Of a DNA stretch of 52,936 nucleotides, positions 10,393 through 44,860 are shown piece after piece. A program made the translations under genes and the position numbers. The notes beneath the pieces are model-generated. The model worked only from the letters and a program-made list of their open reading frames with translations, was not told the origin of the DNA and searched no databases. The DNA comes from Escherichia phage JEP7. Position 1 is the first letter of the stretch; every line of letters starts with the position of its first letter. Where the stretch lies: sequence record MT764207.1; one strand, 5' to 3'.

Positions 10393-10421
10393 TTTACTTA
10401 ACCGAGGCGCCAGCCTATAAT
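10393..10421 (+). promoter_or_regulatory. sigma70-like promoter embedded in an inverted repeat
   Basis: TTTACT 10393-10398, N17, TATAAT 10416-10421; GCGCCAGC...GCTGGCGC dyad straddles the -10. Confidence 0.45.
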
Positions 10422-10453
10422 AAGCTGGCGCACCCAATAAGAGGATTCTCCAG

Positions 10454-11103: not shown

Positions 11104-13233
11104 ATGTCGCTTCCACTTAATGAGGTTGTCGACGTCCAGTTCAGTAAGAGCAACGGGGGTAAAGGTTTTACCCCCAATGTTCCGCTGGAAGGTATAATGC
11201 TTTCTAACTACGAGTACTCAATCGTCGCGGGTGATGACCCTGTTCAGCTAGTTGTGCGTTACATTCCAACCAACGCTACTGAGCGTGGTATGGCATGGAA
11301 ATCTAGCGACCCGGACGTTATCACTGTTGATGAGCTCGGATTTGTGAAGCCACTGGCGGAAGGTGTTGCATACGTGACTGGTACGTCTGTTGACGGCGGT
11401 TATACAGTACGGGCAAAGTTTAACATTGCTCGGGCACCTATCCTTGTTGAATCTGTTACAGTGTCTCCCACAAGTGTGACGCTTGAAGAGGGCAAGACTC
11501 AACGCCTGACATACACCTATTTACCTGCTAATGCAGACAAACCTGATTTCTACTGGATTTCAGACGATGAGTCTGTTGCTATAGTTAACGACAGCGGGCT
11601 TGTCACTGCCATTGGAGATGGCGAAACAACTGTAAACGTGCAGTACGGTGTTGACAGCTCTATATTCGATAGCTGTACTGTAACTGTTATTCCGCCTGTT
11701 GTACACGTTACAGGAGTTGAGTTTCTTACTCAGTCGCCTATTAACGTTAATATCGGAAGCACAGCTGGTACTAGTATTCGTATATCGCCAGAAGATGCCA
11801 CTGACAAAACAGTGACATACGAAAGCAGTGCGCCTGATGTAGCAACTGTGGATACTGACGGAAATGTTACTGGTATTATAGCTGGTAATGCCACTGTTAC
11901 TGTTAAGACGAATGACGGTGATAAGACTGACACTCTTGACATTATAGTCAGGGTACCTGCTGTAAATGTTACAGGTGTAAGTATTGATGAAGGCGATACA
12001 GCTTCTATGGAGGTTGGTGACACGCTTCAGCTACATGCCACTGTGACTCCTGAAAATGCTACTGACCCGTCTGTTGTATGGAGTGCTCCTGTATCAGAAG
12101 TTGCGTCTGTGACTGAAGCTGGTTTGGTAACCGCTAACGCTGCAGGTTTAATTGATGTTACTGTTATCACTAATGATGGGAACTTTACTGATAGAATCGA
12201 GGTTAAAGTTACAGACCCCAGAATCGCAGTTACGGATGTTGCATGGGCTCCTGACTCTCCGACTAAAGTAAGTGCCGGCCATCAGGTGCAAACTAAAATT
12301 GTTATAACACCTGACAACGCAACTAACAAAAAAGTTAGCTACAATAGTTCAAACCCAGACGCTGTTACTGTTGACACTAACGGAGTTATATACGGCCAAT
12401 CTCCTGGAACTTCGACTATTACAGTTACAACAGACGACGGTGGACTTGTTGCTTCGTTTGTAGCGACTTGCACAGAGGTGGCTGTTATTACACCAGATGG
12501 TCTTGGTGGTATTCCAGTAGGTGGTACTCAGCAGTTCACTTACACTGTTAACCAGTCTGACGCTGAGCTGACTAATATTCGTTATGAGTCTGCTGACCCA
12601 GCTATTGCAACTGTTGATTCATCAGGCGTTGTAACTGGTGTTGCTAGCGGCGGATGTAACATCTGGATTTACGCAACTAGTAATGGTGCTGACATTAGCG
12701 CAGCTACTTGGGCACAAATTTCTGAGAGGGTACAGGTCTATCCGCAGTATGCTGAATGGCTTGTGGGTAACACCAAACAACTTGATGTTGAGATCTATCC
12801 GTCGGACTCTAAGAGCGTTACTGTTACTTATAGCTCGTCAGATGACTCTATAATTAGTGTAGATGCAAATGGCTTGATGACTGCTAAGTCTGAAGGTTCA
12901 GCAACTATTACTGCTAACGTTGTAATGAACGGTGTTGCTGCTTCTGGTACAACATCTCCTTACGTGTCTGAGCTTTCTGTTACTACGGATTCGCTGCCTG
13001 CACTTACTGTTGGTAACACGCAGCAGCTCGTTGTAACTGTTAGACCTGAATACGCTAAGACAGACGCAGGCTATAGCATTCAGTATACAACTACAGACGA
13101 TACTGTCGCTACTGTAAGTAATGCTGGTGTTATTACTGGTGTTGGTAGTGGTGGATGTCGTATTGGTGCCACAGTAACTGTGAGAAACGCTACAGCGTCG
13201 GACAGCTCTTATCAGTCCGTCGATGCAGCATAA
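11104..13233 (+). CDS. multi-domain Ig-like (BIG2) repeat protein
   Basis: about 709 aa with at least six tandem Ig-like repeats of the same pattern; ATG at 11104 with AGGAG RBS (track starts at a TTG at 11101). Confidence 0.6.
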   Translation: MSLPLNEVVDVQFSKSNGGKGFTPNVPLEGIMLSNYEYSIVAGDDPVQLVVRYIPTNATERGMAWKSSDPDVITVDELGFVKPLAEGVAYVTGTSVDGGYTVRAKFNIARAPILVESVTVSPTSVTLEEGKTQRLTYTYLPANADKPDFYWISDDESVAIVNDSGLVTAIGDGETTVNVQYGVDSSIFDSCTVTVIPPVVHVTGVEFLTQSPINVNIGSTAGTSIRISPEDATDKTVTYESSAPDVATVDTDGNVTGIIAGNATVTVKTNDGDKTDTLDIIVRVPAVNVTGVSIDEGDTASMEVGDTLQLHATVTPENATDPSVVWSAPVSEVASVTEAGLVTANAAGLIDVTVITNDGNFTDRIEVKVTDPRIAVTDVAWAPDSPTKVSAGHQVQTKIVITPDNATNKKVSYNSSNPDAVTVDTNGVIYGQSPGTSTITVTTDDGGLVASFVATCTEVAVITPDGLGGIPVGGTQQFTYTVNQSDAELTNIRYESADPAIATVDSSGVVTGVASGGCNIWIYATSNGADISAATWAQISERVQVYPQYAEWLVGNTKQLDVEIYPSDSKSVTVTYSSSDDSIISVDANGLMTAKSEGSATITANVVMNGVAASGTTSPYVSELSVTTDSLPALTVGNTQQLVVTVRPEYAKTDAGYSIQYTTTDDTVATVSNAGVITGVGSGGCRIGATVTVRNATASDSSYQSVDAA

Positions 13234-13258
13234 AAATTAATTAACTTTGCCTCGGCCA

Positions 13259-13287
13259 TTTACTTGGGTAAACTTACTGAGTATAAT
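13259..13287 (+). promoter_or_regulatory. sigma70-like promoter flanked by an inverted repeat
   Basis: TTTACT 13259-13264, N17, TATAAT 13282-13287; CGGCCAT...ATGGCCG dyad flanks it. Confidence 0.45.
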
Positions 13288-13319
13288 GGCCGGAAAGTCC
13301 ACCCAAGAGGTAATCAAAA

Positions 13320-25985: not shown

Positions 25986-26002
25986 AGGCCCCTTCATTTA
26001 TT
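25974..26002. terminator. bidirectional terminator hairpin between convergent gene blocks
   Basis: GGGGCC-GAGTGAA-GGCCCC hairpin flanked by A-run upstream and TTCATTTATT downstream, at the junction of + strand lysis genes and - strand genes. Confidence 0.55.
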
Positions 26003-26225
26003 AGCGTTTACCTTTTAGTTCGTTATACTGCGCACACGCTGCACACAGCACTGTACCGGGTAAAAGCTGACGTCGTTTTTCTTCAATGTCTTCCCCACAC
26101 TGGTAGCACGTCAGCGGGCTTACTCCGGTGTATCTTACTCGGTTCGATAGTGCTGCGTCCCGGGCAACTTGTTCAGCTTCAGAAGCCATATCAGTAATGT
26201 CCGATGTGCGCATAGACTCAATCAT
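26001..26225 (-). CDS. DksA/TraR-family C4 zinc-finger protein
   Basis: 74 aa with CxxC-N17-CxxC (CYQCGEDIEEKRRQLLPGTVLCAACA) characteristic of the TraR/DksA zinc finger. Confidence 0.6.
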   Translation of the reverse strand: MIESMRTSDITDMASEAEQVARDAALSNRVRYTGVSPLTCYQCGEDIEEKRRQLLPGTVLCAACAQYNELKGKR

Positions 26226-30986: not shown

Positions 30987-31371
30987 TTCGTAACTCCTTA
31001 CAAACAGTTTCGATAAACTTACGCTTAATTTCTGTAGACCAGATAATATGACGAGCCTGTTCTAAAGTGTCCCAACGTTCTTTACCCACAGGAAAGGGAA
31101 CAATGAAAAGGCCGGTACGGGATATGCGCTTGATAAACGGGAATTTACAGCGCATGGTTGTTTCAAACTTGATAAAGTTGGTTTGCACTTCGCGTGTAAA
31201 CTTGACCTTATCAAATTCATGTTCAAGAGTTTGAGCAAGGTTGCATACTTCCTGGAAAGAAGATGTGGGTAAATAATCTTCGCGGCCGACGGTGTTCACG
31301 TAGTCGATTTGGCCTTCGAGTCGAAGTATCCAAATCCTGTAATAAGCTTCAGCAACACGTTGTAGGTTCAT
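30973..31371 (-). CDS. hypothetical protein
   Basis: 132 aa; GAGGAGAG RBS; first gene downstream of promoter at 31398-31426. Confidence 0.3.
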   Translation of the reverse strand: MNLQRVAEAYYRIWILRLEGQIDYVNTVGREDYLPTSSFQEVCNLAQTLEHEFDKVKFTREVQTNFIKFETTMRCKFPFIKRISRTGLFIVPFPVGKERWDTLEQARHIIWSTEIKRKFIETVCKELRNAIQ

Positions 31372-31397
31372 TGTATCTCTCCTCTAAAAGATAACTT

Positions 31398-31426
31398 ATT
31401 ATACCACATCACTCTCTAGTGGTAAA
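31398..31426 (-). promoter_or_regulatory. promoter with TTTACC -35 and extended -10 (TGgTATAAT), CCAC/GTGG dyad in spacer
   Basis: minus-strand reading CTTTACCACTAGAGAGTGATGTGGTATAAT; 17-nt spacer. Confidence 0.5.
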
Positions 31427-31453
31427 GCACTTTTTACGCTTCTGGTAAAAATA

Positions 31454-31482
31454 AAAAGGACCAGCGTTAACTGGTCCTTTTG
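31454..31482 (-). terminator. rho-independent terminator (minus-strand orientation)
   Basis: GGACCAG-CGTTAA-CTGGTCC stem-loop with A-run on + strand, i.e. hairpin followed by TTTTTATTTTT on the minus strand. Confidence 0.6.
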
Positions 31483-32047
31483 GCAGGGTGGCGTAAGGAG
31501 ATACAAGGCATCATAACTATGCAACCAGGCAGCGCATATGAGATTGGCCAAAAGATTTACCATTTTAATCCCCGCGACGAGACGAAAGGAGGTGCCATCA
31601 AGTAGCCAATCACATATGCGTTACTTGCTGTGTGCTCTCACCGCGGAAAGTATAGAGCGTTGCACTTATCACACCGATGGAGTGGCAAAAGCACACAGCA
31701 AGTACAACCTTAGTTGTGGTGTCTTAGCACCTGAGTTATTGTGGATAACCTGCACCCGACGGGTGTCAAAAAGATACGCCAAAACACCACAACTAAAATT
31801 GTGACCGCCGTCTACACCAGGCGCCTGGGGTCAAGGTAGCGAGCCAATACCCTTTTCAGCGTCGGAGGAATCGAACCTCACACATCACGGCTTTTACCAA
31901 ATCTCGGTCAGCGAGCAGAATTGAACTGCATTCACTGGACACCCTCACTGTTTCAACACACCAGGCTTAATTGATTGTTGATAAGAAGAGAGATGTAAGG
32001 ATGTCCATTGAATGCACCTCCGTAGAGGTGCGTTCAGATCAGCGCTA
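31483..32047 (-). ncRNA. candidate structured non-coding RNA / long 3' UTR
   Basis: about 570 nt without a credible ORF between the stop of 32048-32515 and the terminator; contains nested inverted repeats (CTTAGTTGTGGTGT ... ACACCACAACTAA enclosing CACCC-GAC-GGGTG), a 12-bp palindrome CCAGGCGCCTGG and a tRNA T-arm-like GAGGTTCGATTCCTC on the minus strand. Confidence 0.3.
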
Positions 32048-32515
32048 TTATTCAGCAACTTCTTCGTTGTCGCCTTCGATCGCGCCAGCCAGTTTAGCAG
32101 CTTCAGCTTTAGCAGCTTCTGCTTTCTGGCGAGCTTTTTCAGCTTTCTCTTCAGCTTTGCGAATCTGCTCAGCAGCTTTCGCTTCGGCTTTTTCAGCTTT
32201 GATGCGAGCACGCTCTTCAGCTTTACGCTGTTTTTCAGCGGCTTTAGCAGCATCGCGTTCTGCTTTAGCGGTATCAACACGCTTAGCCAGAACTTTACCA
32301 GTGGCTTTACGCCAGTAGGTCAGCTGGGAAGAAACAGTACCACGGGACATTTCGGTAGTGGCAACAACTTCGTCCATAACGTCAGAGCTGGACTTGCCTT
32401 CTTCATGGGCTTTATCAGCCAGGTCCCATACGTAACGTGCGCCAGTACCAGCTGCCGGATACAGTACGCCGTTAACTTCTTCTTTACCAGTTACAAAAGT
32501 CAGTTTCTCGCTCAT
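32048..32515 (-). CDS. Lys/Ala/Glu-repeat protein (histone H1-like, putative DNA-binding)
   Basis: ATG 32515 with GAGGA RBS; C-terminal third is KAAEK/AEKA low-complexity repeats; codon choice typical of highly expressed genes. Confidence 0.4.
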   Translation of the reverse strand: MSEKLTFVTGKEEVNGVLYPAAGTGARYVWDLADKAHEEGKSSSDVMDEVVATTEMSRGTVSSQLTYWRKATGKVLAKRVDTAKAERDAAKAAEKQRKAEERARIKAEKAEAKAAEQIRKAEEKAEKARQKAEAAKAEAAKLAGAIEGDNEEVAE

Positions 32516-32621
32516 AATTTTTTCCTCGTCTACAGGGCTTAATGTTTGTTCGTTACGTGAGTTAATATACGTCATTTAAAAGAGTGTGTAAACACCTTTT
32601 TTAAACTTTTTTCATTAGTGT

Positions 32622-32849
32622 CTAGAAAGGCACATCATAGTCAAAAAGTTTACATCCGGAAGACAGGACTGCCGGCGGTGGTGTTTTGCCTCCGGATAAT
32701 AGACAACCTCCTGCCTGAAAACTACGGCAGTTCGCACAGCTCATATCCTGCAGGTATATAATAAGCTGCCGGCGAACATGCCGTGGTAAAGCTTTAGCTT
32801 GGGTAGCTACCCGTTCAAATAGTTCTCTGTCATCGAGCGCCATAGCCAT
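32622..32849 (-). CDS. hypothetical small Cys-containing protein
   Basis: 75 aa ORF overlapping the helicase 3' end; weak call. Confidence 0.25.
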   Translation of the reverse strand: MAMALDDRELFERVATQAKALPRHVRRQLIIYLQDMSCANCRSFQAGGCLLSGGKTPPPAVLSSGCKLFDYDVPF

Positions 32850-34500
32850 TCCCCCAGTCGTAGTTCATGATTTGTGGGTAGGGTCGTTTAATCCATACCT
32901 TGATGCGCTTAGGAATAGCCAGCTCACCCTTACGGCGAATAAACTCATCGCATGTTTCAGGCGGTTCGGTTCCTGCAGCATTACGCCACCAGGCATCTGC
33001 CATTTGCTTAGCATTACCATGGGCCTCAATATTTACCCAAGTTGTGTACACTTCCAGGTTTGAATAATACACAACCTTTATACTGTCAGGCCGTCCTTGC
33101 TTCTGGAATAAAGAATAGTTTACCAGCGTAACATCCTTATCCACAACACGAAGCTGACCGTTAGTCATTACCTCTTCTTCTGATGAAGTGAAGGCAATAG
33201 CAGGTCCGTTAACTGTAAATTCAAATTCATGTCCGCACATCGGATATACACCATTCTCGTCTGGCGTACTTCCTTTAGCCGGATGTTTACATGTACGAGC
33301 AGCATAACCACTTACCTGGTGGCAGATAGGGCACTCTTTACCGCCAGGTGTTTTCTCTGACCGTTTCTTTTTCTTCTTACCAAGACGTGGCGGAACAGCC
33401 GGGTCATCAATAGGACCAAGGTCAATGGTGTTAGATGTGAAGTCCATAACAAGACAGTCATGCTTACCAGGCGCTGTACGTAATCCTCGACCGAGTATCT
33501 GCACCCACAAGGCAACAGACGTGGACGGGCGCAAGATGCCGAGCATATCAATTTCAGGATAGTCAAAGCCTGTTGTCAATACGTTTACGTTTACGCATAC
33601 CCTGGCACGTCCGCTTGTAAACTCTTCCAGTGCGGCTTCACGTTCTTTCTTTGTAAGACCGCCATGCACAACTACAGTCTGCCACCCGCGCAGATTAAAT
33701 TCGTCTGCTATGTTGTGGGCGTGCTCAACACTTGTGGCAAATACAAGAACGTGGTTCCTGTCTTTACCGTAGTGCATCATCTCACGAATAGCCGCGACTG
33801 TTATACTATGCTGGTTGGCTACCTTCTCGAGCTCTGACGGGATATAGTCACCCATCCTTTCGCCAACATTACTGGTGTCAATCTTGGTTAACACTTTCTT
33901 GTTGACCAGGCGCGACAGGAAGCCTTCATTTACCAGTCGGGTGAATGCGTCAGGTGTTGTAAGGTCATAGCAGATGTCGGTAAATATACCACAGTCAAGC
34001 AAGTGACCACCTGCCAGTCGATACGGAGTTGCTGTAAGGCCTGTTACCTTTACCTTAGGATTAAGCTCTTTGAAATGAGCAATAACCTTACGGTATGTTG
34101 TTTCAGACTTCTCAGGAACGAGATGGGCTTCGTCAATGAATATAAGATTGAACTTACCTGCTTCTTCCAGGTTCTTAATAATCGACTGTACTGACGCTAC
34201 AACTATACGACCTGAAAAGTCTTTGTGTCCTGCACCTGAAGAGTAGATTGATACTGGTGCTTGTGGCCAGTGGCGAACAATTGCTTTGGCGTCTTGTTCT
34301 ACCAGCTCCTTGACGTGTGTCAATATAAGAATGCGCTGACGTGGATAGCTGGTAAGAATATCCTTCATCAACATACCAAGCACAGGTGATTTACCTGAAC
34401 CTGTTGGCATGACAATAAGTGGGTTACCACTATAAGAATTGAAGTACGACCACCAAGCGGTCACAGCTTCTTGTTGATACCAGCGAGCTTCAAAAGCCAT
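32830..34500 (-). CDS. superfamily 2 DEAD/DEAH-box DNA helicase with C-terminal zinc-ribbon
   Basis: 556 aa; motif I VMPTGSGKS, motif II FIDEAH, motif III-like LTATP; C-terminal CPICH...C...C cluster. Confidence 0.8.
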   Translation of the reverse strand: MAFEARWYQQEAVTAWWSYFNSYSGNPLIVMPTGSGKSPVLGMLMKDILTSYPRQRILILTHVKELVEQDAKAIVRHWPQAPVSIYSSGAGHKDFSGRIVVASVQSIIKNLEEAGKFNLIFIDEAHLVPEKSETTYRKVIAHFKELNPKVKVTGLTATPYRLAGGHLLDCGIFTDICYDLTTPDAFTRLVNEGFLSRLVNKKVLTKIDTSNVGERMGDYIPSELEKVANQHSITVAAIREMMHYGKDRNHVLVFATSVEHAHNIADEFNLRGWQTVVVHGGLTKKEREAALEEFTSGRARVCVNVNVLTTGFDYPEIDMLGILRPSTSVALWVQILGRGLRTAPGKHDCLVMDFTSNTIDLGPIDDPAVPPRLGKKKKKRSEKTPGGKECPICHQVSGYAARTCKHPAKGSTPDENGVYPMCGHEFEFTVNGPAIAFTSSEEEVMTNGQLRVVDKDVTLVNYSLFQKQGRPDSIKVVYYSNLEVYTTWVNIEAHGNAKQMADAWWRNAAGTEPPETCDEFIRRKGELAIPKRIKVWIKRPYPQIMNYDWGNGYGAR

Positions 34501-34526
34501 TTATCATCTCCTCATTAACTTTATAT

Positions 34527-34555
34527 ATTATACCACTTCCTTGTGGTAAAGTATA
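34527..34555 (-). promoter_or_regulatory. promoter with extended -10 (TGgTATAAT) and CCAC/GTGG dyad
   Basis: minus-strand reading CTTTACCACAAGGAAGTGGTATAAT upstream of helicase gene. Confidence 0.45.
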
Positions 34556-34558
34556 CTT

Positions 34559-35437
34559 TTATTTTAAGGAAAGTTTAACGGGCTTCTCATCCTGCGGGAA
34601 GACATCAGCAGGGCGATAATCATCACAAGCTGCTAATTGCTCTTCGAGTGTTTCGAGTTCTTTCTGGTGCTTGTTGCAGTACCACACTTTGCCCTGGAGC
34701 GGTTTACTGTAATGGCAGGTTCTGCAGTTCCTGTCTGGCATTGCTCCTTTGTGGCACAGGTGATGGTATTCGCACATCCCTGGTTTGCACTCCCACCAAA
34801 TAGGCGATTCAGAAATCTTCGGCATATCCAAACCAGATTCCGCATATACAACAGCCTCCGCTTTACTCAGTTGTATGTCGCTTTCCAGTAAGTCAATCTC
34901 GACCACCTCAAAATACATCTCGTCGGTGTTCTTGTTGATTGCGATGTACACAGCTTGATTCAGCTTAAGCTTCCGCATGTATACCTGCATCTGGGCATAG
35001 TGTACCGGCTTACTTGCTTTAACAGACTTGAGCTTGACTAACTCTTTAAACGACTTATCGCCATGCGTCTTGAATTCAGCAAGTGCCCATACGCCTTTGT
35101 ATTTAATTACACAGTCACAAGACCCAGAGAAGATGTCATTGAATTCGTGTATGCGCCATTGCTTACCAGTCTTGGGATTGACGTCCAGCACCTCATCACA
35201 TACGGAACGAAGCCACTTTACAATTCTGCTTTCTTCAAGGTTACCTCGCTCAAACAGACGAAGTTGCTTAGCTGTAAACTTCTCCTTGAACGACCAGTGC
35301 AGAACGTGCCAAAGATAGCGATAGCAGTTGTGCCCTATCTGCGATGCTCCAAGATGCCCGCGTCGTTCTTCTCTTTCGTGGGCTTCGACTATCTTGATGT
35401 CAATACGTTTCTGCAGGTCGTCAAACGGACTTGGCAT
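34559..35437 (-). CDS. PD-(D/E)XK exonuclease (Cas4/RecB-nuclease-like) with C-terminal Cys cluster
   Basis: ATG 35437 with GAGGAG RBS; D...EFK motif (DCVIKYKGVWALAEFKTHGD); C-terminal CKPGMC...C..C....C cysteine cluster. Confidence 0.5.
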   Translation of the reverse strand: MPSPFDDLQKRIDIKIVEAHEREERRGHLGASQIGHNCYRYLWHVLHWSFKEKFTAKQLRLFERGNLEESRIVKWLRSVCDEVLDVNPKTGKQWRIHEFNDIFSGSCDCVIKYKGVWALAEFKTHGDKSFKELVKLKSVKASKPVHYAQMQVYMRKLKLNQAVYIAINKNTDEMYFEVVEIDLLESDIQLSKAEAVVYAESGLDMPKISESPIWWECKPGMCEYHHLCHKGAMPDRNCRTCHYSKPLQGKVWYCNKHQKELETLEEQLAACDDYRPADVFPQDEKPVKLSLK

Positions 35438-35906
35438 TGTTAAACTCCTCAACGCTGAATTCATCGTACACAATATTATGAGCCCACAAATGAGCGACGG
35501 CGTTTGCCATACTGTCTTTCCATTTGGATTGTGAAGCTGTATGAGCCAATGCAACTACACGAACCAGGTTAAGGTTGGCTATCAGCATATCTGCACAATG
35601 TTCGCACGGCGGGTAGGTTATGTAGATGGTAACCGGGCCTAAAGAAGGAGTGTCTAACTCACTCCTTATATTAGCTAAGGTATTTATCTCGCTATGAATA
35701 GTTAGAGCGTTCTTGAGGCTATTAGGCACTATTCTTATAGAGTCTAGCTGCGTAGGTAAGCCGTTATATCCAGTGGAAATAATACGCTTGTTCTGGTCCA
35801 CAAGAACACTACCGACTTGACGTTTCGGGTCCTTTGACCAGCTTGCAACTTCACAAGCTATGCGCATAAACCGCTTGTCCCACTTGTCCATCTTCTTCTT
35901 TTGCAT
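35421..35906 (-). CDS. dCMP deaminase (cytidine/deoxycytidylate deaminase family)
   Basis: 161 aa; zinc-binding motifs HSEINT and PCEHC. Confidence 0.85.
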   Translation of the reverse strand: MQKKKMDKWDKRFMRIACEVASWSKDPKRQVGSVLVDQNKRIISTGYNGLPTQLDSIRIVPNSLKNALTIHSEINTLANIRSELDTPSLGPVTIYITYPPCEHCADMLIANLNLVRVVALAHTASQSKWKDSMANAVAHLWAHNIVYDEFSVEEFNNAKSV

Positions 35907-35925
35907 GGTAGTCTCCGTATACGAA

Positions 35926-35945
35926 AATAGGGGCCGAAGCCCCTA
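35926..35945 (-). terminator. GGGGC-UUCG-GCCCC hairpin (possible terminator/attenuator)
   Basis: minus-strand hairpin GGGGCTTCGGCCCC followed by TATTTTCG, between SSB-like gene stop and dCMP deaminase start. Confidence 0.4.
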
Positions 35946-35967
35946 TTGAATATCTACTCGGCAGGGA

Positions 35968-36513
35968 TTACTCTTCCCAAGGAGCTGCTTCACCACCATC
36001 AGTACCAGGTGCCGTTGCAGTAGCACTCCCCTTCATTGAAGTACCCGCACCTGCACCTACTTTCTTCGTCGTCGATGCAGTTGCTTGAGACTGACCGCCT
36101 ACTGCAGTAGTTGCTTCAGTTGACGCTTTGTATTCGCGAATATCGTTTTGTGGGTCGTATTCACCGGTCTTGTCGATACGAACACCAACTTTACCGGCTA
36201 CAATACGGTTTTCCAGTAAGTCGGTAGAAGTCAGTTCAACAATACCCAGCGCACGACACAACGCAGACAGTTTGCGATGACCGATTTCAACAGCTTGTGC
36301 ATTAGGGTTGGAGTAGGTAATCATGTCAAATACAACACGGTTAGCGAACTCACCTTCCTGCACTTTCAGACGCAGGGACAGGTAAGAACCAGTGCCTGCT
36401 TTAGTCGGCTTCAGCTCAACCTCTTCAATCATGAAGTTGTACCAGCCTTTCGGGATAGGGTCAAAAGACTGTTGCGGTTCGACGGTAGAGCTGTTGAAGT
36501 TTAATTCAGCCAT
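35968..36513 (-). CDS. putative ssDNA-binding protein
   Basis: 181 aa; Gly/Ala/Thr-rich flexible C-terminal region ending in acidic tail (APWEE); adjacent to RecA-like ATPase; weak call. Confidence 0.3.
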   Translation of the reverse strand: MAELNFNSSTVEPQQSFDPIPKGWYNFMIEEVELKPTKAGTGSYLSLRLKVQEGEFANRVVFDMITYSNPNAQAVEIGHRKLSALCRALGIVELTSTDLLENRIVAGKVGVRIDKTGEYDPQNDIREYKASTEATTAVGGQSQATASTTKKVGAGAGTSMKGSATATAPGTDGGEAAPWEE

Positions 36514-36585
36514 TGTTTGGTATCCTGTTTAAGTTTAGTTTAATTTCGTTTAACGCTTTACCGGCAGCGTTCGGCCGTGATGCTT

Positions 36586-36615
36586 ATTATACGCCACTTT
36601 TTATCATGGCGTAAA
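36586..36615 (-). promoter_or_regulatory. promoter (TTTACG ... GTGGCGTATAAT)
   Basis: minus-strand reading GTTTACGCCATGATAAAAAGTGGCGTATAAT. Confidence 0.4.
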
Positions 36616-36620
36616 CACTT

Positions 36621-37505
36621 TTATTTGCTGGTTTCTTTCTCAGCTTGAGCGGCTTTCTTCGCCATCCAGGCTTGGTGCTTCTCTTTCGATTCGTCCGAAC
36701 CGATTTTAGTGAGCTGCACGTTTGGGTCGTCGTTCTGCATCTGTTCTGCAGCTCGACCTGTCAGGAGCAGGTAGCTGTCTGACTCCGGATGATAATACCA
36801 CAGCTGGTAAGGATGATAGCCTTGTAGCTTATCATAAATCCAGCCCAGATCTGCAGGTTCACGTGCATCCAGTTCACGGCCTGGTGCGTTACGGCACTTA
36901 GCTTCCCATTGATAGTCAGGTTGTGTCTGAATATAGCGCTCGCTGTTACCATTGGCATCAGGTGCAGTCATACGTAAAGCAAGCACCGCATCCATAAGGT
37001 ACGGTAACTGTTTAGGTAACTGCTGACCAGGCATAAGAGGTGAGTACAACATTGCACCAGTAACCTCGTCCTTGTTCTTCTCAAGCTTGCACAGGTATGC
37101 AACGCTGAAAGGCAAGTCACGGAACTGACGCATGATATACATCATCTTGTCGTTGGTATTACCATACGCCTGTCGTTTGTCATTAACCTGTGACTTCTCG
37201 TAGTCCAGACAAACTTCAGCAACATCTGATAGTGAGTCGAAAATCAGATGCTCATACTTCTGCGCATCCTTACTTTCGGTAAGCCATTTGTACAGCGCCA
37301 GAATGTCGTTGAACGTATTGATTGGCGTAGAGTCGATGTCAGCGTCTGCAATTGACATCAAACCGCCTTCGGCATTAATGACAAGAACCTTGTCATGAGG
37401 CAAGGTCTTAGCCAGGGTGGTTTTACCAACACCTGATGCGCCGTAAATAGCGACCTTAGGTCGCTTATTTTCTACGGCTTGTTTAGTAGATACAATCTGA
37501 ACCAT
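36621..37505 (-). CDS. RecA-like P-loop ATPase (Sak4-like recombination protein, putative)
   Basis: 294 aa; Walker A AIYGASGVGKTT near N-terminus; Walker B-like LIFD. Confidence 0.5.
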   Translation of the reverse strand: MVQIVSTKQAVENKRPKVAIYGASGVGKTTLAKTLPHDKVLVINAEGGLMSIADADIDSTPINTFNDILALYKWLTESKDAQKYEHLIFDSLSDVAEVCLDYEKSQVNDKRQAYGNTNDKMMYIMRQFRDLPFSVAYLCKLEKNKDEVTGAMLYSPLMPGQQLPKQLPYLMDAVLALRMTAPDANGNSERYIQTQPDYQWEAKCRNAPGRELDAREPADLGWIYDKLQGYHPYQLWYYHPESDSYLLLTGRAAEQMQNDDPNVQLTKIGSDESKEKHQAWMAKKAAQAEKETSK

Positions 37506-37735
37506 TAATGATAGTCCTCGTAAAGTGATTCTTCATCGCAGTACATACGATAAAGAGCTTCTTCGGCTTCTTCCAGGGTGTCAAACTCCTCGCCACAGAC
37601 GGAGTATTTTGTGGGTTCATCGAATGACTCGACGATGTGCCAGTCATGATGAATACCGTATGTCCACAAGTCGCAGTCATCTTTTGCAACAAGCTTACGT
37701 GTGGAACGAAATTGTGCTAGAGTATTGATGCTCAT
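37505..37735 (-). CDS. hypothetical protein
   Basis: ATG 37735 with AGGAGAG RBS (track ORF extends to 37774 across the promoter). Confidence 0.3.
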   Translation of the reverse strand: MSINTLAQFRSTRKLVAKDDCDLWTYGIHHDWHIVESFDEPTKYSVCGEEFDTLEEAEEALYRMYCDEESLYEDYH

Positions 37736-37762
37736 ATTCTCTCTCCTCATGTGTATAGAGGT

Positions 37763-37791
37763 ATTATACACCACTTACATGGGGTAAGTAC
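37763..37791 (-). promoter_or_regulatory. promoter (CTTACC ... GTGGTGTATAAT)
   Basis: minus-strand reading GTACTTACCCCATGTAAGTGGTGTATAAT. Confidence 0.4.
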
Positions 37792-37795
37792 ACTA

Positions 37796-38242
37796 CTATT
37801 TTACACTAACAGCTTGACACGATAGCCGTGACAAACCGAGGTTGGCTATGACACCATCGAGCAATACTCCTGCATGCTCTTCGTTGTATGCTTCTACCCA
37901 CAAAGGGATGGTCACGCCCTTCATATGGTCGCTGTATACGTTGAACGTAAACAATTGTTTGTGTGCTTTGTCAACACGCACAACAGTAAGATTACCATCC
38001 TCTCGTGGCGGAAGCTCAACGCCGTTATTACTCCAGAAGCTACGGAATTCGTCGCTGTTAACAATACCATGCACGACACGTTCTGTAAGTTCTGTTTTGA
38101 GGTCAGCACGTGCCTTTGTACTGATAAAGAAACGACAAGAGAAGAAGGCATTGACGTTTAGCACATCAACAGCATACACAACGTTATGCTCTTCAGTAGT
38201 TGGCGCTTTATAAACAATATATTTAGTCTTGAACAGGTCCAT
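37796..38242 (-). CDS. hypothetical protein
   Basis: ATG 38242 with GGAGAG RBS (track ORF starts at a GTG at 38278). Confidence 0.3.
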   Translation of the reverse strand: MDLFKTKYIVYKAPTTEEHNVVYAVDVLNVNAFFSCRFFISTKARADLKTELTERVVHGIVNSDEFRSFWSNNGVELPPREDGNLTVVRVDKAHKQLFTFNVYSDHMKGVTIPLWVEAYNEEHAGVLLDGVIANLGLSRLSCQAVSVK

Positions 38243-38290
38243 AGTACTCTCCAGGGAGGAAGACTGGCGGGCTTGCACCCGCCTAAGTTA

Positions 38291-39196
38291 TTACAGCAGT
38301 TCTGCTTTCAGCGCAGCGATACCATCGAGCAATGCTTTGATGTCCGGGTTAGATGCCGCCAGGTCAGCAACAACTGACTGACGACGACGTTCCAGCTCTT
38401 TCTCAACTTCCAGGTCGAGTCGTGCTGACGCTTCACGCAGTAAGTCTTCAACCTGCTGACGACGCTGATACTTGTTAAAGTCAGGCACATCAACCAGCCA
38501 TTTGAGAGTTGCAGTGTTATAGCCGGAAGTATTGGCTGCACTTACAGACACAACATCAACGAGCTTGGTACCGTTCAGCTCCGGATAATTAACATTGCGA
38601 ACGTCAACAACTGCTTTGTCACCTACACTTACTTTGCCGATGTACTTGTAAGTGTACACACGACCATTCGGTTCAAACTTAACACCAACAAACTTCAGTT
38701 TGTCGTCTGCAATAACCTCTTCCTCAACTTTGAAGTTGATTGCAGTATTCTTAACAGGTGCAGCCGCTTTGAGCTTAGCAACCATGTACTGTTCGGAATG
38801 AGACGGACGGCACAGACGGAAGACGTCTTCATTGTAGGTCAGCCAGTTACCGGTCTCATCCATGCATGCAATCTGATTAGTGCCATCCAGCGAACGAACG
38901 CCCGGGCGATTCTTCTCAACACGATACAGCTTACCTTCTTTCAGGTTAGCATAAGAACGGCGGGCGATACCCCAGTTGTGTTTTTCAGATTCATACTTAG
39001 CGAAACGGTCAACACTGAAGTTCTGCTTCAGGCCACGGTCGTCGATTACCCATAAGTTATCGTAAGCCCCGCAAAAAGAACCTAGGTTGGCATACACTTT
39101 GCCCTGCGTCAACAGGGAAGTGGTTCCCTCGTCAACACAGATAACAAAACCCAGAGCTTCGTGTGCTTTACCGCTGCGGTCAAATACTGTAGTCAT
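38291..39196 (-). CDS. hypothetical protein
   Basis: 301 aa; AAGGAAAC RBS; coiled-coil C-terminus. Confidence 0.3.
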   Translation of the reverse strand: MTTVFDRSGKAHEALGFVICVDEGTTSLLTQGKVYANLGSFCGAYDNLWVIDDRGLKQNFSVDRFAKYESEKHNWGIARRSYANLKEGKLYRVEKNRPGVRSLDGTNQIACMDETGNWLTYNEDVFRLCRPSHSEQYMVAKLKAAAPVKNTAINFKVEEEVIADDKLKFVGVKFEPNGRVYTYKYIGKVSVGDKAVVDVRNVNYPELNGTKLVDVVSVSAANTSGYNTATLKWLVDVPDFNKYQRRQQVEDLLREASARLDLEVEKELERRRQSVVADLAASNPDIKALLDGIAALKAELL

Positions 39197-39278
39197 TTCT
39201 TGTTTCCTTGTATACCAGTTTAATTGTATGCCAGAGTTATTCCCTGCGCATGTGCTTTATTGCTTAACCGTTAAAGAC

Positions 39279-39307
39279 ATTATATCATTAGCGAGTGGTG
39301 ACGTACA
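39279..39307 (-). promoter_or_regulatory. promoter with extended -10 (TGaTATAAT)
   Basis: minus-strand reading GTGTACGTCACCACTCGCTAATGATATAAT. Confidence 0.4.
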
Positions 39308-39310
39308 CAT

Positions 39311-39601
39311 TTATTTTAAGGCAGAAGTGCAAATAGCATCACACAAACAATAATGAGCACGGTCGTAGTCTTCAAACAAGAACACTTCGCCATTGGCGAC
39401 AACTTCATTACTGTTGACCTGCAGGCTAATACCTGAATGCAGAAGCACATCCATAGCCTGGTCCTTGTTCTTGTACGGGTCCCAAATAAGCTGGAAGCCT
39501 GACCCACAAAGGAGACATCCCTTGAGCTCCGGAAGAGTTGACTCCTTCACGGTCACATTACAAATCTTAGCCAGCTTAGCACGAGAATCGAGAGTACTCA
39601 T
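39311..39601 (-). CDS. hypothetical protein
   Basis: 96 aa; ATG overlaps upstream stop. Confidence 0.3.
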   Translation of the reverse strand: MSTLDSRAKLAKICNVTVKESTLPELKGCLLCGSGFQLIWDPYKNKDQAMDVLLHSGISLQVNSNEVVANGEVFLFEDYDRAHYCLCDAICTSALK

Positions 39602-39876
39602 TTACGTTTGTGTGGAGGTGTATATGTTTTCTTCGGTACGCCGAACATGGCCGCATATGTACCGACTTCTTTCTTTGTTGGCTTATCCACAATCTCGTCA
39701 ATCACGATTAAGTCATGGTTGATATTGCGAAAGACTTCAGCCGCTCTTTTCTCAACAGGAGTAAAGTCAATAACCAGCTCTTTGCCTATCAGGCTTTCTT
39801 TGAACTTGTCAAATAGCCATTTGTCACGCGGACCAGGATTGCCCATAAACATAACACGCATCTGCTTATTGTCCAT
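39598..39876 (-). CDS. hypothetical protein
   Basis: 92 aa basic protein. Confidence 0.3.
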   Translation of the reverse strand: MDNKQMRVMFMGNPGPRDKWLFDKFKESLIGKELVIDFTPVEKRAAEVFRNINHDLIVIDEIVDKPTKKEVGTYAAMFGVPKKTYTPPHKRK

Positions 39877-39944
39877 GGATGATATACCCCGTTATTTGTG
39901 TTGCCAGGTACAAACCGTATACCACACACCCAACTAGTATGGCA

Positions 39945-40244
39945 TCAAGAATAAGATGGGCTATCCTCACGTTTGATCTCCACGTTACGGCTGTTAACAA
40001 CTTCCAGGCTGGTACCATCATTTTTGTGGGTTACACGAATAAATGCAACACCCTCAGCCTGTGCCTGCTCAATAGCTTTATTCAGCACAACATTATCCTG
40101 TACCATATGACGTACGCGAGGAAGGATATTACAAAGAGGTTCCATCTCATCCATTCCTGCAGTACGCATGACGGACTTGAGAATGCCAAGATGATGCTTG
40201 TAACGGTCTTCAAGATTATACTTCTTGCTGTTATCTGATGCCAT
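39945..40244 (-). CDS. hypothetical protein
   Basis: ATG 40244 with GGAG RBS (track ORF starts at a TTG at 40256). Confidence 0.3.
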   Translation of the reverse strand: MASDNSKKYNLEDRYKHHLGILKSVMRTAGMDEMEPLCNILPRVRHMVQDNVVLNKAIEQAQAEGVAFIRVTHKNDGTSLEVVNSRNVEIKREDSPSYS

Positions 40245-40263
40245 GTAAGTCTCCAAAAGTCAA

Positions 40264-40282
40264 GGGGCTTGTGCTAAGCCCC
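40264..40282 (-). terminator. hairpin (possible terminator)
   Basis: GGGGCTT-GTGCT-AAGCCCC stem-loop between genes; minus-strand downstream CTTTTGG. Confidence 0.35.
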
Positions 40283-40288
40283 GTCTAA

Positions 40289-40738
40289 TTACTCGGCTTC
40301 TTCCGTAGCCGCCGGGGTGAATGTTACAGTCGGAATACCAGGCGAGGTCTTCACAACAGGGTCGACGATAGCCAGTTGTTCTGGTGTCAGGTTACGGTAT
40401 GCAGTAACTGACATTTCATACTTGGTTTTAAACAGCTTGGCAACAACAGTCTTCGGTAACTTCTTCATTACATCAGGCACAAGCTTCTGATCAAGTGAGC
40501 GGTTAACCTTCTGCTCAACCTTGAGTTTACCAGGTACGCCATGCATACTGAACTCAACAGTTTGTGTACCTTCTTTACCGCGGTTGATAATCATGTCGCG
40601 TTCAAGACGTGCTTTAATGGTCCGGCGCAACGTCTCCTGGTCAGCTTTCGCTTGTGCCATCCAGCGGTTCAGATTCGCCAGCTTGTCGTACAGCTGTTCC
40701 GTGTCCATCGATTCCAGTTCTTGTGGGTTCAATGCCAT
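40289..40738 (-). CDS. hypothetical protein
   Basis: ATG 40738 with GAGGA RBS; overlaps upstream ORF by about 98 nt. Confidence 0.3.
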   Translation of the reverse strand: MALNPQELESMDTEQLYDKLANLNRWMAQAKADQETLRRTIKARLERDMIINRGKEGTQTVEFSMHGVPGKLKVEQKVNRSLDQKLVPDVMKKLPKTVVAKLFKTKYEMSVTAYRNLTPEQLAIVDPVVKTSPGIPTVTFTPAATEEAE

Positions 40739-41009
40739 CAGTTGTTTCCTCAGGTTGCATGTGCATAGTTGCACCAATTAGTAGACAATAGTTATTGAAC
40801 ATTGTACGTAGTGCCTGGCCCGCAGCAATATCCGTTACGTCTATTATACCACTTTTAGTGGTGACGCGTAAAGCTTTTTCTTTCTTTGTTTTTTCCACGA
40901 ATGCAATGCTGATGATTTCTTCCGCATGGATTACGTGGATGGTACCTGCAAACTCACCAGTCTTAGCTGGCGCCTGGTACACTAACGACATAGACGGTTG
41001 GTTACTCAC
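40641..41009 (-). CDS. hypothetical protein
   Basis: GTG start at 41009 with AGGAG RBS; 3' part overlaps next gene and contains promoter-like sequence. Confidence 0.25.
   Translation of the reverse strand: MSNQPSMSLVYQAPAKTGEFAGTIHVIHAEEIISIAFVEKTKKEKALRVTTKSGIIDVTDIAAGQALRTMFNNYCLLIGATMHMQPEETTDGIEPTRTGIDGHGTAVRQAGESEPLDGTSES
40843..40872 (-). promoter_or_regulatory. promoter with extended -10 (TGgTATAAT) and CCAC/GTGG dyad
   Basis: minus-strand reading CTTTACGCGTCACCACTAAAAGTGGTATAAT. Confidence 0.4.
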
Positions 41010-41457: not shown

Positions 41458-41550
41458 TGGTTGTATCTCCTTAGCAGAATGTACGTCTATTATGTATATA
41501 AAGGAGGGGAAAGTAAATAGATATAAATGTATAAAATACATAAAAGTCTA

Positions 41551-44599: not shown

Positions 44600-44860
44600 A
44601 TGAGCTCCTTATAAAAGATTAAGGGGGTAAAAAAGGGGGATACAAGTACCGGATAAAGGGGGTATATATTTATTTATTATTATTATTATTATTATATATT
44701 ATTAATTATATTAGAAGTAATAAAAACAGCTACTTAGAGGCGTCTATATGTATGATCCGGTTTATCTCTTTATTAATATCAGAACCGGATGAAAAAAATT
44801 TACGCCGGCGAAAAAAATAAAAAAGCCGGATTGATAAATAAATCTGTAGACGTTTACACT
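44600..44860. repeat. AT-rich iteron/microsatellite region (candidate replication origin or regulatory hub)
   Basis: three AAGGGGG(T/A)A copies (44622, 44634, 44656); (TTA)7 microsatellite about 44676-44697; repeated CCGGAT/ATCCGG/GCCGGC motifs each followed by A-runs. Confidence 0.4.

What the first reader, a model, noticed from the sequence alone, without database searches (positions are those of the whole stretch)
31398..40872. Replication-block promoters share an extended -10 and a CCAC/GTGG dyad, distinct from the morphogenesis promoters
Six minus-strand intergenic sites (31398-31426, 34527-34555, 36586-36615, 37763-37791, 39279-39307, 40843-40872) read (T)TTAC(C/G)...CCAC...GTGG(N0-2)TATAAT, for example CTTTACCACTAGAGAGTGATGTGGTATAAT and CTTTACCACAAGGAAGTGGTATAAT. 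The morphogenesis and late promoters (3019, 4935, 10393, 13259, 41551, 44854, 52582) are plain TTTAC(T/A)-N17-TATAAT. The shared dyad between -35 and -10 looks like an operator for a common regulator, or marks a temporal promoter class.
Basis: seen in the sequence. Interest (0 to 1): 0.45.

Follow-up and report, generated by a model that had tools for sequence, protein, structure and literature searches.

The report
Phage promoters with built-in stem-loops
The six sites are host-type promoters of a Rosemountvirus phage, and the "CCAC/GTGG dyad" is best read as short stem-loops built into some of these promoters rather than a repressor binding site, a layout already described in T4-like phages, so it is a modest addition to something known.

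Summary
The window is a Rosemountvirus genome (Salmonella/E. coli myophage). All six sites are real sigma70-type promoters at the stated coordinates. Five of the six have a perfect dyad of 6 bp or more in the spacer, against none of eight other promoters. The literal CCAC...GTGG is present at only three sites (31403, 34532, 40848). A TGn extended -10 is present at four.

Twelve diverged relatives change the reading. At three promoters (helicase 34532, SSB 36591, gp66/Sak4 37768) the dyad is kept by compensatory changes. Arm sequences and loop lengths differ. Internal G.T pairs fall on the sense strand. The helicase site keeps an asymmetric loop, A(A/T)GGA(A/C). In a distant relative that hairpin survives with no promoter and a T-rich tail.

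This is the signature of a hairpin, not of an operator for one regulator. The dyads at 31403 and 40848 exist only in the window's lineage, and 40848 lies inside a conserved gene. Two morphogenesis promoters (10416, 13282) also carry conserved hairpins.

The layout matches the PeSL promoter/stem-loop cassettes of T4-type phages. The likely role is attenuation or stabilisation of read-through RNA, which is inferred and not shown.

The parts
31398..31426 (-). Promoter P1 (TTTACC-N17-TATAAT, TGn). The dyad TACCAC 31424-31419 / GTGGTA 31407-31402 is found only in the window's lineage.
   Evidence: Relatives read GTAGTATAAT, which removes the dyad and the TGn. Annotated as a promoter in BP63.
31454..31481 (-). 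Strong intrinsic terminator (12-bp stem followed by a T run) directly upstream of P1.
32564..32592 (-).
34527..34555 (-). Promoter P2 upstream of the helicase gene (TATACT-N17-TATAAT, TGn).
   Evidence: Annotated in BP63 and S144.
34531..34548 (-). P2 stem-loop TACCAC-AAGGAA-GTGGTA. The stem covaries and the loop A(A/T)GGA(A/C) is conserved in all 12 lineages.
   Evidence: 92% of cells paired, 3 of 6 pairs with changes on both sides, 0 of 500 shuffles reach the observed value. Retained without a promoter in L082.
36586..36615 (-). Promoter P3 upstream of the SSB (DUF669) gene (TTTACG-N18-TATAAT, no TGn).
36590..36613 (-). P3 stem-loop TACGCCAT-GATAAAAA-GTGGCGTA (8 pairs, -12 kcal/mol).
   Evidence: z = -4.3; a hairpin in 9 of 9 lineages, mean z = -5; 100% of cells paired, one pair GC<->AU, three pairs that vary only to G.U.
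37763..37792 (-). Promoter P4 upstream of the gp66/Sak4 genes (TGTACT-N18-TATAAT).
37767..37786 (-). P4 stem-loop TACCCCA-TGTAAG-TGGTGTA, with one C.T mismatch in the window and a perfect stem in SE13 and ZCSE2. An alternative dyad is ACTTAC 37789-37784 / GTAAGT 37778-37773.
   Evidence: a hairpin in 7 of 10 lineages. Pairs 3, 4 and 7 change on both sides. 0 of 5000 column shuffles reach the observed pairing, on a hand-fitted alignment.
39279..39307 (-). Promoter P5 (TGTACG-N17-TATAAT, TGn) with no hairpin. The primary sequence TCACCACT..ACTAG(T/C)GA is conserved.
40843..40872 (-). Promoter P6 (TTTACG-N18-TATAAT, TGn), embedded in the coding sequence of ORF 40641-40991. The dyad ACCACT 40862-40857 / AGTGGT 40853-40848 is found only in the Rosemountvirus lineage (window, BP63, SE13); ZCSE2 has a different, weaker dyad (ATACCA-CTAA-TGGTAT).
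   Evidence: The hexamers are read as the codons TTA and ATA-ATA.
41489..41517 (-). Promoter P7 (TTTACT-N17-CATAAT), the first promoter of the leftward block, with no hairpin.
10407..10431 (+). Morphogenesis promoter P10416 sits in an 11-pair hairpin, GCGCCAGCCTA-TAA-TAAGCTGGCGC, with TATAAT at its tip.
   Evidence: Conserved in ZCSE2. In KE25 it reads TGCCAGCTA-TAATG-TAGCTGGCA.
13253..13292 (+). Morphogenesis promoter P13282 is enclosed by an outer stem CGGCCATT/AATGGCCG plus a spacer stem TACTTGG 13261-13267 / CTGAGTA 13277-13283.
   Evidence: -12.7 kcal/mol, z = -4.2. ZCSE2 has TACACAG/CTGTGTA and KE25 has TACTTG/CGGGTA.

Best explanation
These are composite promoter/stem-loop cassettes of the PeSL type. 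Each cassette runs in this order: the stop codon of the upstream gene inside an A-rich stretch, a -35 hexamer (TTTAC or TGTAC), a 17-18 bp spacer, TATAAT, a short leader with GAGGAG, and the start codon.

As double-stranded DNA each cassette is a promoter for the host sigma70 RNA polymerase.

At the helicase, SSB and gp66/Sak4 promoters the spacer also encodes a 5-8 bp hairpin, whose 3' arm runs into the first bases of TATAAT. A transcript started at that promoter does not contain the hairpin. Only RNA made by polymerases arriving from the promoter upstream does.

In that read-through RNA the hairpin sits between two A/U-rich single-stranded stretches at the cistron boundary. There it most likely attenuates read-through, or defines and stabilises RNA ends, so that each transcription unit is partly insulated from the one before it.

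The CCAC/GTGG spelling shared by sites 1, 2 and 6 is peculiar to the window's lineage. At site 1 a single A-to-G change created both GTGG and a TGn extended -10. At site 6 the sequence is constrained by codons.

Shown here: promoter conservation, selection for base pairing, and independence of the hairpin from the promoter.
Inferred: that the structure acts in RNA, and what it does there.
For: Promoters.
- The hexamers are conserved in 12 lineages whose Sak4 protein is 46-99% identical.
- Four are annotated as promoters in BP63, with the corresponding positions annotated in S144.
- P6 is kept inside a gene whose protein is only 27-34% identical between lineages.

Selection for pairing.
- Helicase site: 92% of cells paired, pair types CG/UA/GC/AU at one position and AU/GC at another, 0 of 500 shuffles reach the observed value, and slid controls give 9-58% paired.
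- SSB site: 100% paired, one GC<->AU swap, and three pairs that change only to G.U.
- gp66 site: three pairs change on both sides, 0 of 5000 shuffles.
- RNAalifold finds the same helices on its own.
- Fold z-scores per lineage average -5.0 for P3, -2.4 for P4 and -1.9 for P2, against about 0 to -1 for P1, P1b, P5 and P6 (P7 does not fold at all).

Strand.
- Internal G.T against A.C mismatches in stems are 6:0 on the sense strand, counted with a rule that treats both alike.
- The SSB helix is 100% paired on the sense strand and 89% on the antisense strand.

Independence from the promoter.
- In L082 (Sak4 55% identical) TAGCAC-ATGGAA-GTGCTA remains with no promoter-like site, and its T-rich tail is scored terminator-like.
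- In the same contig TTGACA-N18-TATCTT at 6697-6726 and a terminator-like hairpin at 6700-6721 are the same piece of DNA.
- L084 (46% identical) keeps GCCGC-AAGGAC-GCGGC.

Distribution.
- The block-initial promoters (41494, 41575) have no hairpin.
- P1, which follows a strong terminator, has no conserved hairpin.

Precedent.
- PeSLs of phages phi1 and RB49 have the same order of parts. [quoted passage not shown] One stem-loop was tested and terminated transcription (PMC2839356).
- The PST/T4 PeSL promoter consensus is TTTACW-N17-TAYWAT (PMC4122927).
Against: - No transcript ends have been mapped in this phage group. The literature searches found only promoter predictions.
- In the window the hairpins are weak (-5 to -12 kcal/mol) and are followed by UAUAAU rather than a U run, so none passes the terminator scan.
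- P5 and P1b are internal promoters with neither a hairpin nor a terminator.
- The gp66 hairpin is broken in L014, weak in L086, and carries a mismatch in the window itself.
- The evidence for the sense strand rests on only 4-6 partly dependent positions, and the helicase helix pairs slightly better on the antisense strand at its outermost pair.
- The lagging-strand template of a leftward-moving fork would expose the same strand as single-stranded DNA, so RNA against single-stranded DNA is not resolved.
- The lineages are few (9-12) and related, so the shuffle counts overstate significance.
Confidence: 0.55

Rival explanations
1. One reading: the dyad is an operator. A dimeric phage (or host) regulator binds double-stranded DNA between the -35 and -10 of the replication-block promoters and switches them off or on together.
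For: - The dyads sit where a bound protein would block RNA polymerase.
- ACCAC/GTGGT recurs at three window promoters, and GTGGTATAAT occurs exactly three times.
- Many small ORFs have no known function, so a regulator cannot be excluded.
Against: - Arm spacing is 3, 6, 6, 8 and 11 nt at the five sites.
- Arm sequences differ between sites (ACCAC, GCCA, CCCCA).
- Within one site the arms change between lineages while staying complementary: ACCAC, ATCAC, AGCAC, CGCGC, GCCGC.
- What is conserved at the helicase site is the asymmetric centre, the opposite of what a dimer's operator would show.
- The dyads at sites 1 and 6 are absent or rebuilt with different arms in relatives, and site 5 has none.
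- The helicase hairpin persists without a promoter.
- No helix-turn-helix or other DNA-binding family was found in 30 ORFs. The only hit of that kind is a DksA/TraR zinc finger, a family I recall as binding RNA polymerase rather than DNA (memory).
Confidence: 0.08
2. The structure acts in DNA. The inverted repeats either extrude as cruciforms under negative supercoiling, or fold as hairpins on the single-stranded lagging-strand template. This would silence or mark the promoter, for example by shutting off replication-gene promoters once replication starts, or would serve replication or recombination proteins.
For: - Covariation shows pairing but not which nucleic acid is paired.
- The arms overlap -12/-11 of the -10 hexamer, so extrusion would destroy the promoter.
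- The sense strand is also the lagging-strand template if forks move leftward from the 41.5-44.9 kb region (inference).
- Engineered promoters with a palindromic spacer have been reported to respond to supercoiling (recalled from memory: Horwitz and Loeb 1988).
Against: - Stems of 5-8 bp with loops of 6-10 nt are poor candidates for cruciform extrusion (general knowledge).
- G.T pairs are better tolerated in RNA than in DNA.
- The conserved single-stranded loop, and a hairpin that survives loss of the promoter, do not fit a device whose purpose is to control that promoter.
- T-rich tails in L082 point to an effect on transcripts.
Confidence: 0.15
3. The dyads have no function of their own. They are by-products of the promoter consensus (TAC of TTTAC is complementary to GTA of G+TATAAT, and GTGG supplies TGn), combined with common descent of duplicated promoters.
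For: - Three of the eight SSB-site pairs (TAC/GTA) come free from the -35 and -10 hexamers.
- The site-1 dyad arose by one A-to-G change that also made TGn.
- The site-6 dyad lies in codons.
- So this reading probably does hold for sites 1 and 6.
Against: It cannot explain changes on both sides that keep pairing at three sites. It also cannot explain z-scores of -4.5 to -6.0 at the SSB site in 8 of 9 lineages (-3.5 in L087), or retention of the helicase hairpin at 46-55% protein identity with wholly different stems.
Confidence: 0.07

Closest known systems
PeSLs (promoter-early stem-loops) of T4-type phages phi1, RB49, PST/T4 and nt-1/KVP40 (Arbiol et al. 2010, PMC2839356; Comeau et al. 2014, PMC4122927)
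   Same: - The order of parts is the same: upstream stop codon in an AT-rich stretch, sigma70-like promoter, Shine-Dalgarno sequence, start codon.
[quoted passage not shown]
- G-T pairs occur in the stems.
- The PST/T4 promoter consensus is TTTACW-N17-TAYWAT.

   Different: - The host phage here is an unrelated 53-kb myovirus.
- The cassettes sit in a syntenic core replication module, not in hyperplastic ORFan regions, and I found no sign of cassette-mediated shuffling (not examined systematically).
- The stems are short and not of the GGGG/CCCC type.
- No U run follows the stems in the window.
- Orthologous hairpins are kept by compensatory change, and one has an invariant loop. The passages I read of the two PeSL papers do not report either feature.
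T4 early promoters
   Same: A TTTAC-type -35 with an A-rich upstream region, used by unmodified host RNA polymerase. The consensus is taken from PMC4122927. The match of AAAAGTG to an UP element is from memory.
   Different: A spacer hairpin is not part of the T4 early promoter consensus.
Operators placed in the -35/-10 spacer, e.g. MerR-family sites (from memory)
   Same: [quoted passage not shown]
   Different: MerR-type promoters have 19-20 bp spacers and one conserved dyad sequence. Here the spacers are 17-18 bp and the dyads differ and covary.
Hairpin promoters of phage N4 virion RNA polymerase, and single-stranded-DNA promoters such as F plasmid Frpo (from memory)
   Same: A small DNA hairpin associated with a promoter.
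   Different: - N4 needs a giant virion polymerase. The largest ORF listed in 28-45 kb is 844 aa and the PiR record annotates no RNA polymerase gene.
- In Frpo the hairpin itself rebuilds a double-stranded -35/-10. Here the arms pair spacer with spacer, or -35 with -10, so no promoter duplex would form.

Membership tests
PeSL-type composite promoter/stem-loop cassette | [quoted passage not shown] | tested here: met
   TTTAC/TGTAC-N17-18-TATAAT preceded by AAAATAAAAGTG-like stretches at all six sites.
PeSL-type composite promoter/stem-loop cassette | Stem-loop inside or overlapping the promoter (between the -35 and -10, or over the -10) | tested here: met
   P2, P3 and P4 have spacer hairpins. 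P10416 is centred on the -10. P13282 encloses the whole promoter. Not met at P5, P1b and P7.
PeSL-type composite promoter/stem-loop cassette | Intergenic position: upstream stop codon at the 5' end, Shine-Dalgarno sequence and start codon at the 3' end | tested here: met
   True for P1-P5. P6 lies inside an ORF.
PeSL-type composite promoter/stem-loop cassette | The stem-loop terminates or attenuates upstream transcription | not testable with these tools
   The window hairpins fail the terminator pattern. The L082 orthologues pass it. Reporter assays or 3'-end mapping are needed.
PeSL-type composite promoter/stem-loop cassette | Enriched in hyperplastic regions and flanking ORFan indels (recombination role) | tested here: not met
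   The cassettes lie in a syntenic replication module shared by all lineages. This feature describes where PeSLs were found rather than what they are.
Operator for a dimeric regulator | The same half-site sequence at fixed spacing at all regulated promoters | tested here: not met
   Arm sequences differ between sites and the spacing is 3-11 nt.
Operator for a dimeric regulator | Half-sites conserved in relatives, with the centre free to vary | tested here: not met
   The opposite is seen at the helicase site: the arms covary and the centre is conserved.
Operator for a dimeric regulator | A cognate DNA-binding protein encoded by the phage | tested here: inconclusive
   No DNA-binding family was found in 30 small ORFs by Pfam or PHROGs. 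Many remain ORFans.
MerR-type spacer operator | An overlong 19-20 bp spacer | tested here: not met
   The spacers are 17-18 bp.
Intrinsic (Rho-independent) terminator | A G+C-rich stem followed at once by a U run | tested here: not met
   None of the six sites is listed by the scan. The only strong terminator in the block is 31481-31454.
Known RNA family (Rfam 15) | A match to a curated covariance model | tested here: not met
   Only three chance-level miRNA matches in 26000-49500, with E of 0.5-0.8.

The most novel reading that the evidence does not exclude
The helicase-leader hairpin (window 34548-34531) may be a specific RNA operator rather than a generic attenuator. Its stem has been replaced completely several times, yet its loop A(A/T)GGA(A/C) is unchanged down to relatives with 46% protein identity. 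A phage or host protein, or the ribosome through the GGA core, could read that loop on read-through transcripts to set helicase translation or processing. More broadly, spacer hairpins would make each internal promoter's output depend on whether polymerases arrive from upstream, giving a protein-free way to time or balance replication genes.
Probability: 0.2. Interest if true: 0.55.

Novelty: new member of a known kind. Interest (0 to 1): 0.3.

Why it matters
It corrects a tempting misreading. A dyad in a promoter spacer looks like an operator, but comparison with relatives shows it is a base-paired structure.

It extends the promoter/stem-loop cassette design, so far described in T4-type phages, to an unrelated group of therapeutic-candidate Salmonella and E. 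coli phages. It also adds evidence I did not see in the passages I read of the PeSL papers: compensatory evolution of orthologous hairpins, and survival of a hairpin after loss of its promoter.

It also flags spacer sequences that should not be treated as free when these promoters are reused or engineered.

Tried and rejected
- Rfam scan of 26-49.5 kb: nothing.
- IMG/VR loci found through the helicase: only five belong to the clade. Relatives with 31-47% identical helicase (mostly 34-43%) have it abutting or directly following the upstream gene, with no TATAAT promoter or A(A/T)GGA(A/C)-loop hairpin in the 110 nt upstream, so they add nothing.
- The ZCSE2 annotation 'putative sigma factor', considered as a possible class-specific factor: the gene is the Sak4-like AAA ATPase.
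- CRP-like reading of TCAC-N6-GTGA: the half-sites are in the wrong order (from memory).
- Direct repeat AAAAGTG at about -40 and about -17 as tandem activator sites: the upstream copy fits an A-rich UP-like stretch and the downstream copy is the hairpin's 3' side. Not pursued further.
- One literature search for transcriptomes of these genera returned only irrelevant papers because the terms were too general.
- Strand asymmetry that includes terminal mismatches is not clean. The helicase helix pairs 92% on the sense strand and 95% on the antisense strand, so only internal mismatches were used.
- The metagenome and genome collection scans were not used. Logan and ENA contigs reached through Sak4 homologues gave enough lineages.


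Full report
**Identity of the window.** The window is a complete Rosemountvirus genome. Over the stretches queried (31-41.5 kb) it is 95-98% identical to Salmonella phage BP63, yarpen, UPF_BP2 and about 40 others. It has the same length and coordinates as Escherichia phage vB_EcoM_PiR (OM313461.1). Genes at 26.0-41.5 kb run leftward and encode DNA polymerase, thymidylate synthase, helicase, a Cas4-like exonuclease, dCMP deaminase, SSB (DUF669) and Sak4. The six sites all lie in this block.

**The observation.** Each has a TTTAC-, TGTAC- or TATAC-type hexamer 17-18 bp upstream. Four were already annotated as consensus promoters in the BP63 record, and the S144 record carries PhagePromoter predictions at the corresponding places.

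In a window-only test, five of the six spacers contain a perfect dyad of 6-7 bp, with shuffle p of 0.01-0.036 each. None of eight other TTTAC...TATAAT promoters does. The description is looser than stated in several ways:
- CCAC...GTGG is literally present only at 31403, 34532 and 40848, and the pattern is not enriched genome-wide.
- Site 39284 has no dyad at all.
- TGn is present at four of the six sites, and also at the 'late' promoter 44853.
- At 34532 the TTTAC belongs to the dyad, not to the -35.
- Site 40848 lies inside a conserved ORF. Its hexamers are read as Leu (TTA) and Ile-Ile (ATA-ATA) codons of a protein that is 27-34% identical in distant relatives.
- Two further promoters of the block, 32592-32564 and 41517-41489, were missed.

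**Comparative evidence.** I collected diverged, syntenic relatives:
- Loughboroughvirus ZCSE2, S144 and SE4; KE25; fHy-Eco03; Erwinia phage SOI901.
- One IMG/VR contig.
- Seven Logan or ENA contigs reached through Sak4 homologues of 46-70% identity.

The -35 and -10 hexamers are conserved throughout the lineages with 66% or more Sak4 identity, which supports promoter function. The dyads behave differently from site to site.

*Helicase promoter (P2).* The element reads as follows in each lineage:
- TACCAC-AAGGAA-GTGGTA (window)
- TATCAC-ATGGAA-GTGATA (ZCSE2, KE25, L014)
- CGCGC-ATGGAA-GCGCG (SOI901, L083)
- ACGC-ATGGAA-GCGT (L081)
- TAGCAC-ATGGAA-GTGCTA (L082)
- GCCGC-AAGGAC-GCGGC (L084)

On the alignment, 92% of cells pair. 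One position shows all four Watson-Crick types, three of six pairs change on both sides, no shuffle of 500 reaches the observed scores, and slid controls collapse.

*SSB promoter (P3).* All 72 cells pair. One pair swaps GC for AU, and three pairs vary only to G.U. The hairpin is found in 9 of 9 lineages, with a mean z of -5.

*gp66/Sak4 promoter (P4).* Seven of ten lineages have a hairpin with different arms: TACCCCA/TGGGGTA, TACCCCT/AGGGGTA, TAACCC/GGGTTA, TACATCC/GGGTGTA. L082 has ACACCCTC/GAGGGTGT.

RNAalifold predicts the P2 and P3 helices independently.

*The other sites.* The dyad at 31403 is missing in relatives, which read GTAG instead of GTGG. The dyad at 40848 is absent or rebuilt with different arms in relatives. 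Sites 39284, 32569 and 41494 have none in any lineage.

**What this means.** Arms that differ between sites, stay complementary through changes on both sides, and sit 3-11 nt apart are what a hairpin shows. At P2 they also surround a conserved asymmetric centre. A binding site for one dimeric regulator would show the reverse: conserved arms and a free centre.

Internal G.T against A.C mismatches are 6:0 on the sense strand under a rule that does not favour either. The P3 helix is 100% paired on the sense strand and 89% on the antisense strand. This suggests the gene-sense strand folds, as RNA or as single-stranded DNA. The number of positions is small, and the P2 helix does not show the asymmetry.

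In L082 the P2 hairpin remains although no promoter-like site is found, and its tail TTTCCTGTT makes it terminator-like. In the same contig a TTGACA-N18-TATCTT promoter and a terminator-like hairpin are one and the same DNA. The hairpin is therefore the older and more independent feature.

**Not a class mark.** Two morphogenesis promoters also carry conserved hairpins.
- P10416 sits at the tip of an 11-pair stem.
- P13282 lies inside a 14-pair interrupted stem. Its spacer part is TACTTGG/CTGAGTA in the window, TACACAG/CTGTGTA in ZCSE2 and TACTTG/CGGGTA in KE25.

The replication-block promoters do differ in other respects. They have an A-rich AAAAGTG stretch upstream of the -35, more TGTAC-type hexamers, and TGn at 4 of 6 against 0 of the 7 exact-TATAAT promoters outside the block (the TACAAT promoter at 44853 does carry TGn). 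A temporal class therefore remains possible but cannot be tested here. No DNA-binding regulator was recognised among 30 small ORFs. The only transcription-related hit is a DksA/TraR zinc finger at 26001-26225.

**Comparison with what is known.** The arrangement matches the PeSLs of T4-type phages. Those have the upstream stop codon in an AT-rich stretch and a sigma70-like promoter. The stem-loop is most commonly between the -35 and -10 or over the -10, G-T pairs are noted in the stems, and a Shine-Dalgarno sequence and start codon follow. The stem-loops were proposed, and in one case shown, to terminate upstream transcription (PMC2839356). The PST/T4 version even uses TTTACW-N17-TAYWAT (PMC4122927).

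The differences are these:
- The phage lineage is unrelated.
- The cassettes lie in a conserved replication module rather than in ORFan-rich plastic regions.
- The stems are short and are not G-run/C-run.
- No U run follows them in the window.

Rfam has no matching family. I found no transcript mapping for these genera.

**Mechanism I commit to (confidence about 0.55).** These are sigma70 promoters whose spacers double as RNA stem-loops, seen only by read-through transcripts. The stem-loops attenuate those transcripts or define and stabilise their ends at cistron boundaries.
- Shown: the promoters are conserved, pairing is under selection, and the hairpin does not depend on the promoter.
- Inferred: that the structure acts in RNA, and its precise effect.
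- The weak stems, the UAUAAU tails and the hairpin-less internal promoters P5 and P1b count against a simple terminator model.

**Verdict.** The operator reading is not supported. The feature is a new member of a known kind and of modest interest.

Noticed in passing
window 11000-52936 against OM313461.1: The window has exactly the length and coordinates of the vB_EcoM_PiR record, yet differs from it by 1265 substitutions over 41.9 kb. These are mostly transitions and patchy (0-80 per kb), with no indel at all. That is odd for two independent genomes and may reflect a reference-guided assembly or another version of the record.
   Followed up: partly
window 36552-36571 (-), in the SSB 5' leader: Conserved stem AACGCT-loop-AGCGTT inside the transcript made from P3. 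Relatives have AACGCA...TGCGTT, a compensatory T:A to A:T change, and the element is also present in L082 and L087. SOI901 and L014 carry a different leader. It may be an autoregulatory element of the SSB mRNA.
   Followed up: partly
window 10407-10431 (+): An 11-pair hairpin, GCGCCAGCCTA-TAA-TAAGCTGGCGC, has the TATAAT of a morphogenesis promoter exactly at its tip. It is conserved in ZCSE2 and, with changed outer pairs, in KE25. It could equally be a palindromic operator centred on the -10.
   Followed up: partly
window 13253-13292 (+): The promoter between the major tail protein gene (11104-13233) and the next tail gene (annotated tail sheath in ZCSE2) is wholly enclosed in a 14-pair interrupted hairpin (-12.7 kcal/mol, z = -4.2). 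The inner stem covaries in ZCSE2 and KE25.
   Followed up: partly
window 40843-40872 within ORF 40641-40991 (-): This promoter lies inside a gene. TTTACG and TATAAT are read as Leu (TTA) and Ile-Ile (ATA-ATA, recalled as rare codons in E. coli). They are kept in relatives whose protein is only 27-34% identical, which suggests selection on the DNA signal within coding sequence.
   Followed up: yes
window 31371-31403, 34500-34532, 37735-37768 (-): P1, P2 and P4 share the same downstream layout, TATAAT-N13/14-(A/T)GAGGAGA-N5-7-ATG. This gives leaders of about 20 nt, whereas P3, P5 and P6 have 73-105 nt between the -10 and the start codon.
   Followed up: no
L004 4498-4647, L081 9671-9820, L082 9829-9984: ZCSE2 and two metagenomic relatives have a gene of about 50 codons inserted between the P2 cassette and the helicase start. 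S144, of the same species as ZCSE2, lacks it.
   Followed up: no
L004 6751-7641 (ZCSE2 QBZ70546.1): This gene is annotated 'putative sigma factor', but it is the orthologue of the Sak4-like AAA_24 ATPase (PF13479). The annotation is likely wrong.
   Followed up: yes
window 26001-26225 (-): A 74-aa DksA/TraR C4 zinc-finger protein (E = 6e-10). It is the only recognisable transcription-related protein found, and could modulate host RNA polymerase at particular promoter classes.
   Followed up: no
window 44676-44710 (-): A very AT-rich stretch with TAATAATAATAATAA repeats lies between the primase/helicase gene and the next gene. It may be an origin of replication.
   Followed up: no
PP583539.1, hit H15: A record named 'Listeria phage 220426122051' is 96% identical to this Salmonella/E. 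coli phage genus. The host label is probably wrong.
   Followed up: no
L007 2761-2921 (Erwinia phage SOI901): Two tRNA genes (Gln, Pro) occupy the variable gap between the P1b-driven gene (the 32048-32515 orthologue) and P1, which holds only small ORFs in other lineages.
   Followed up: no
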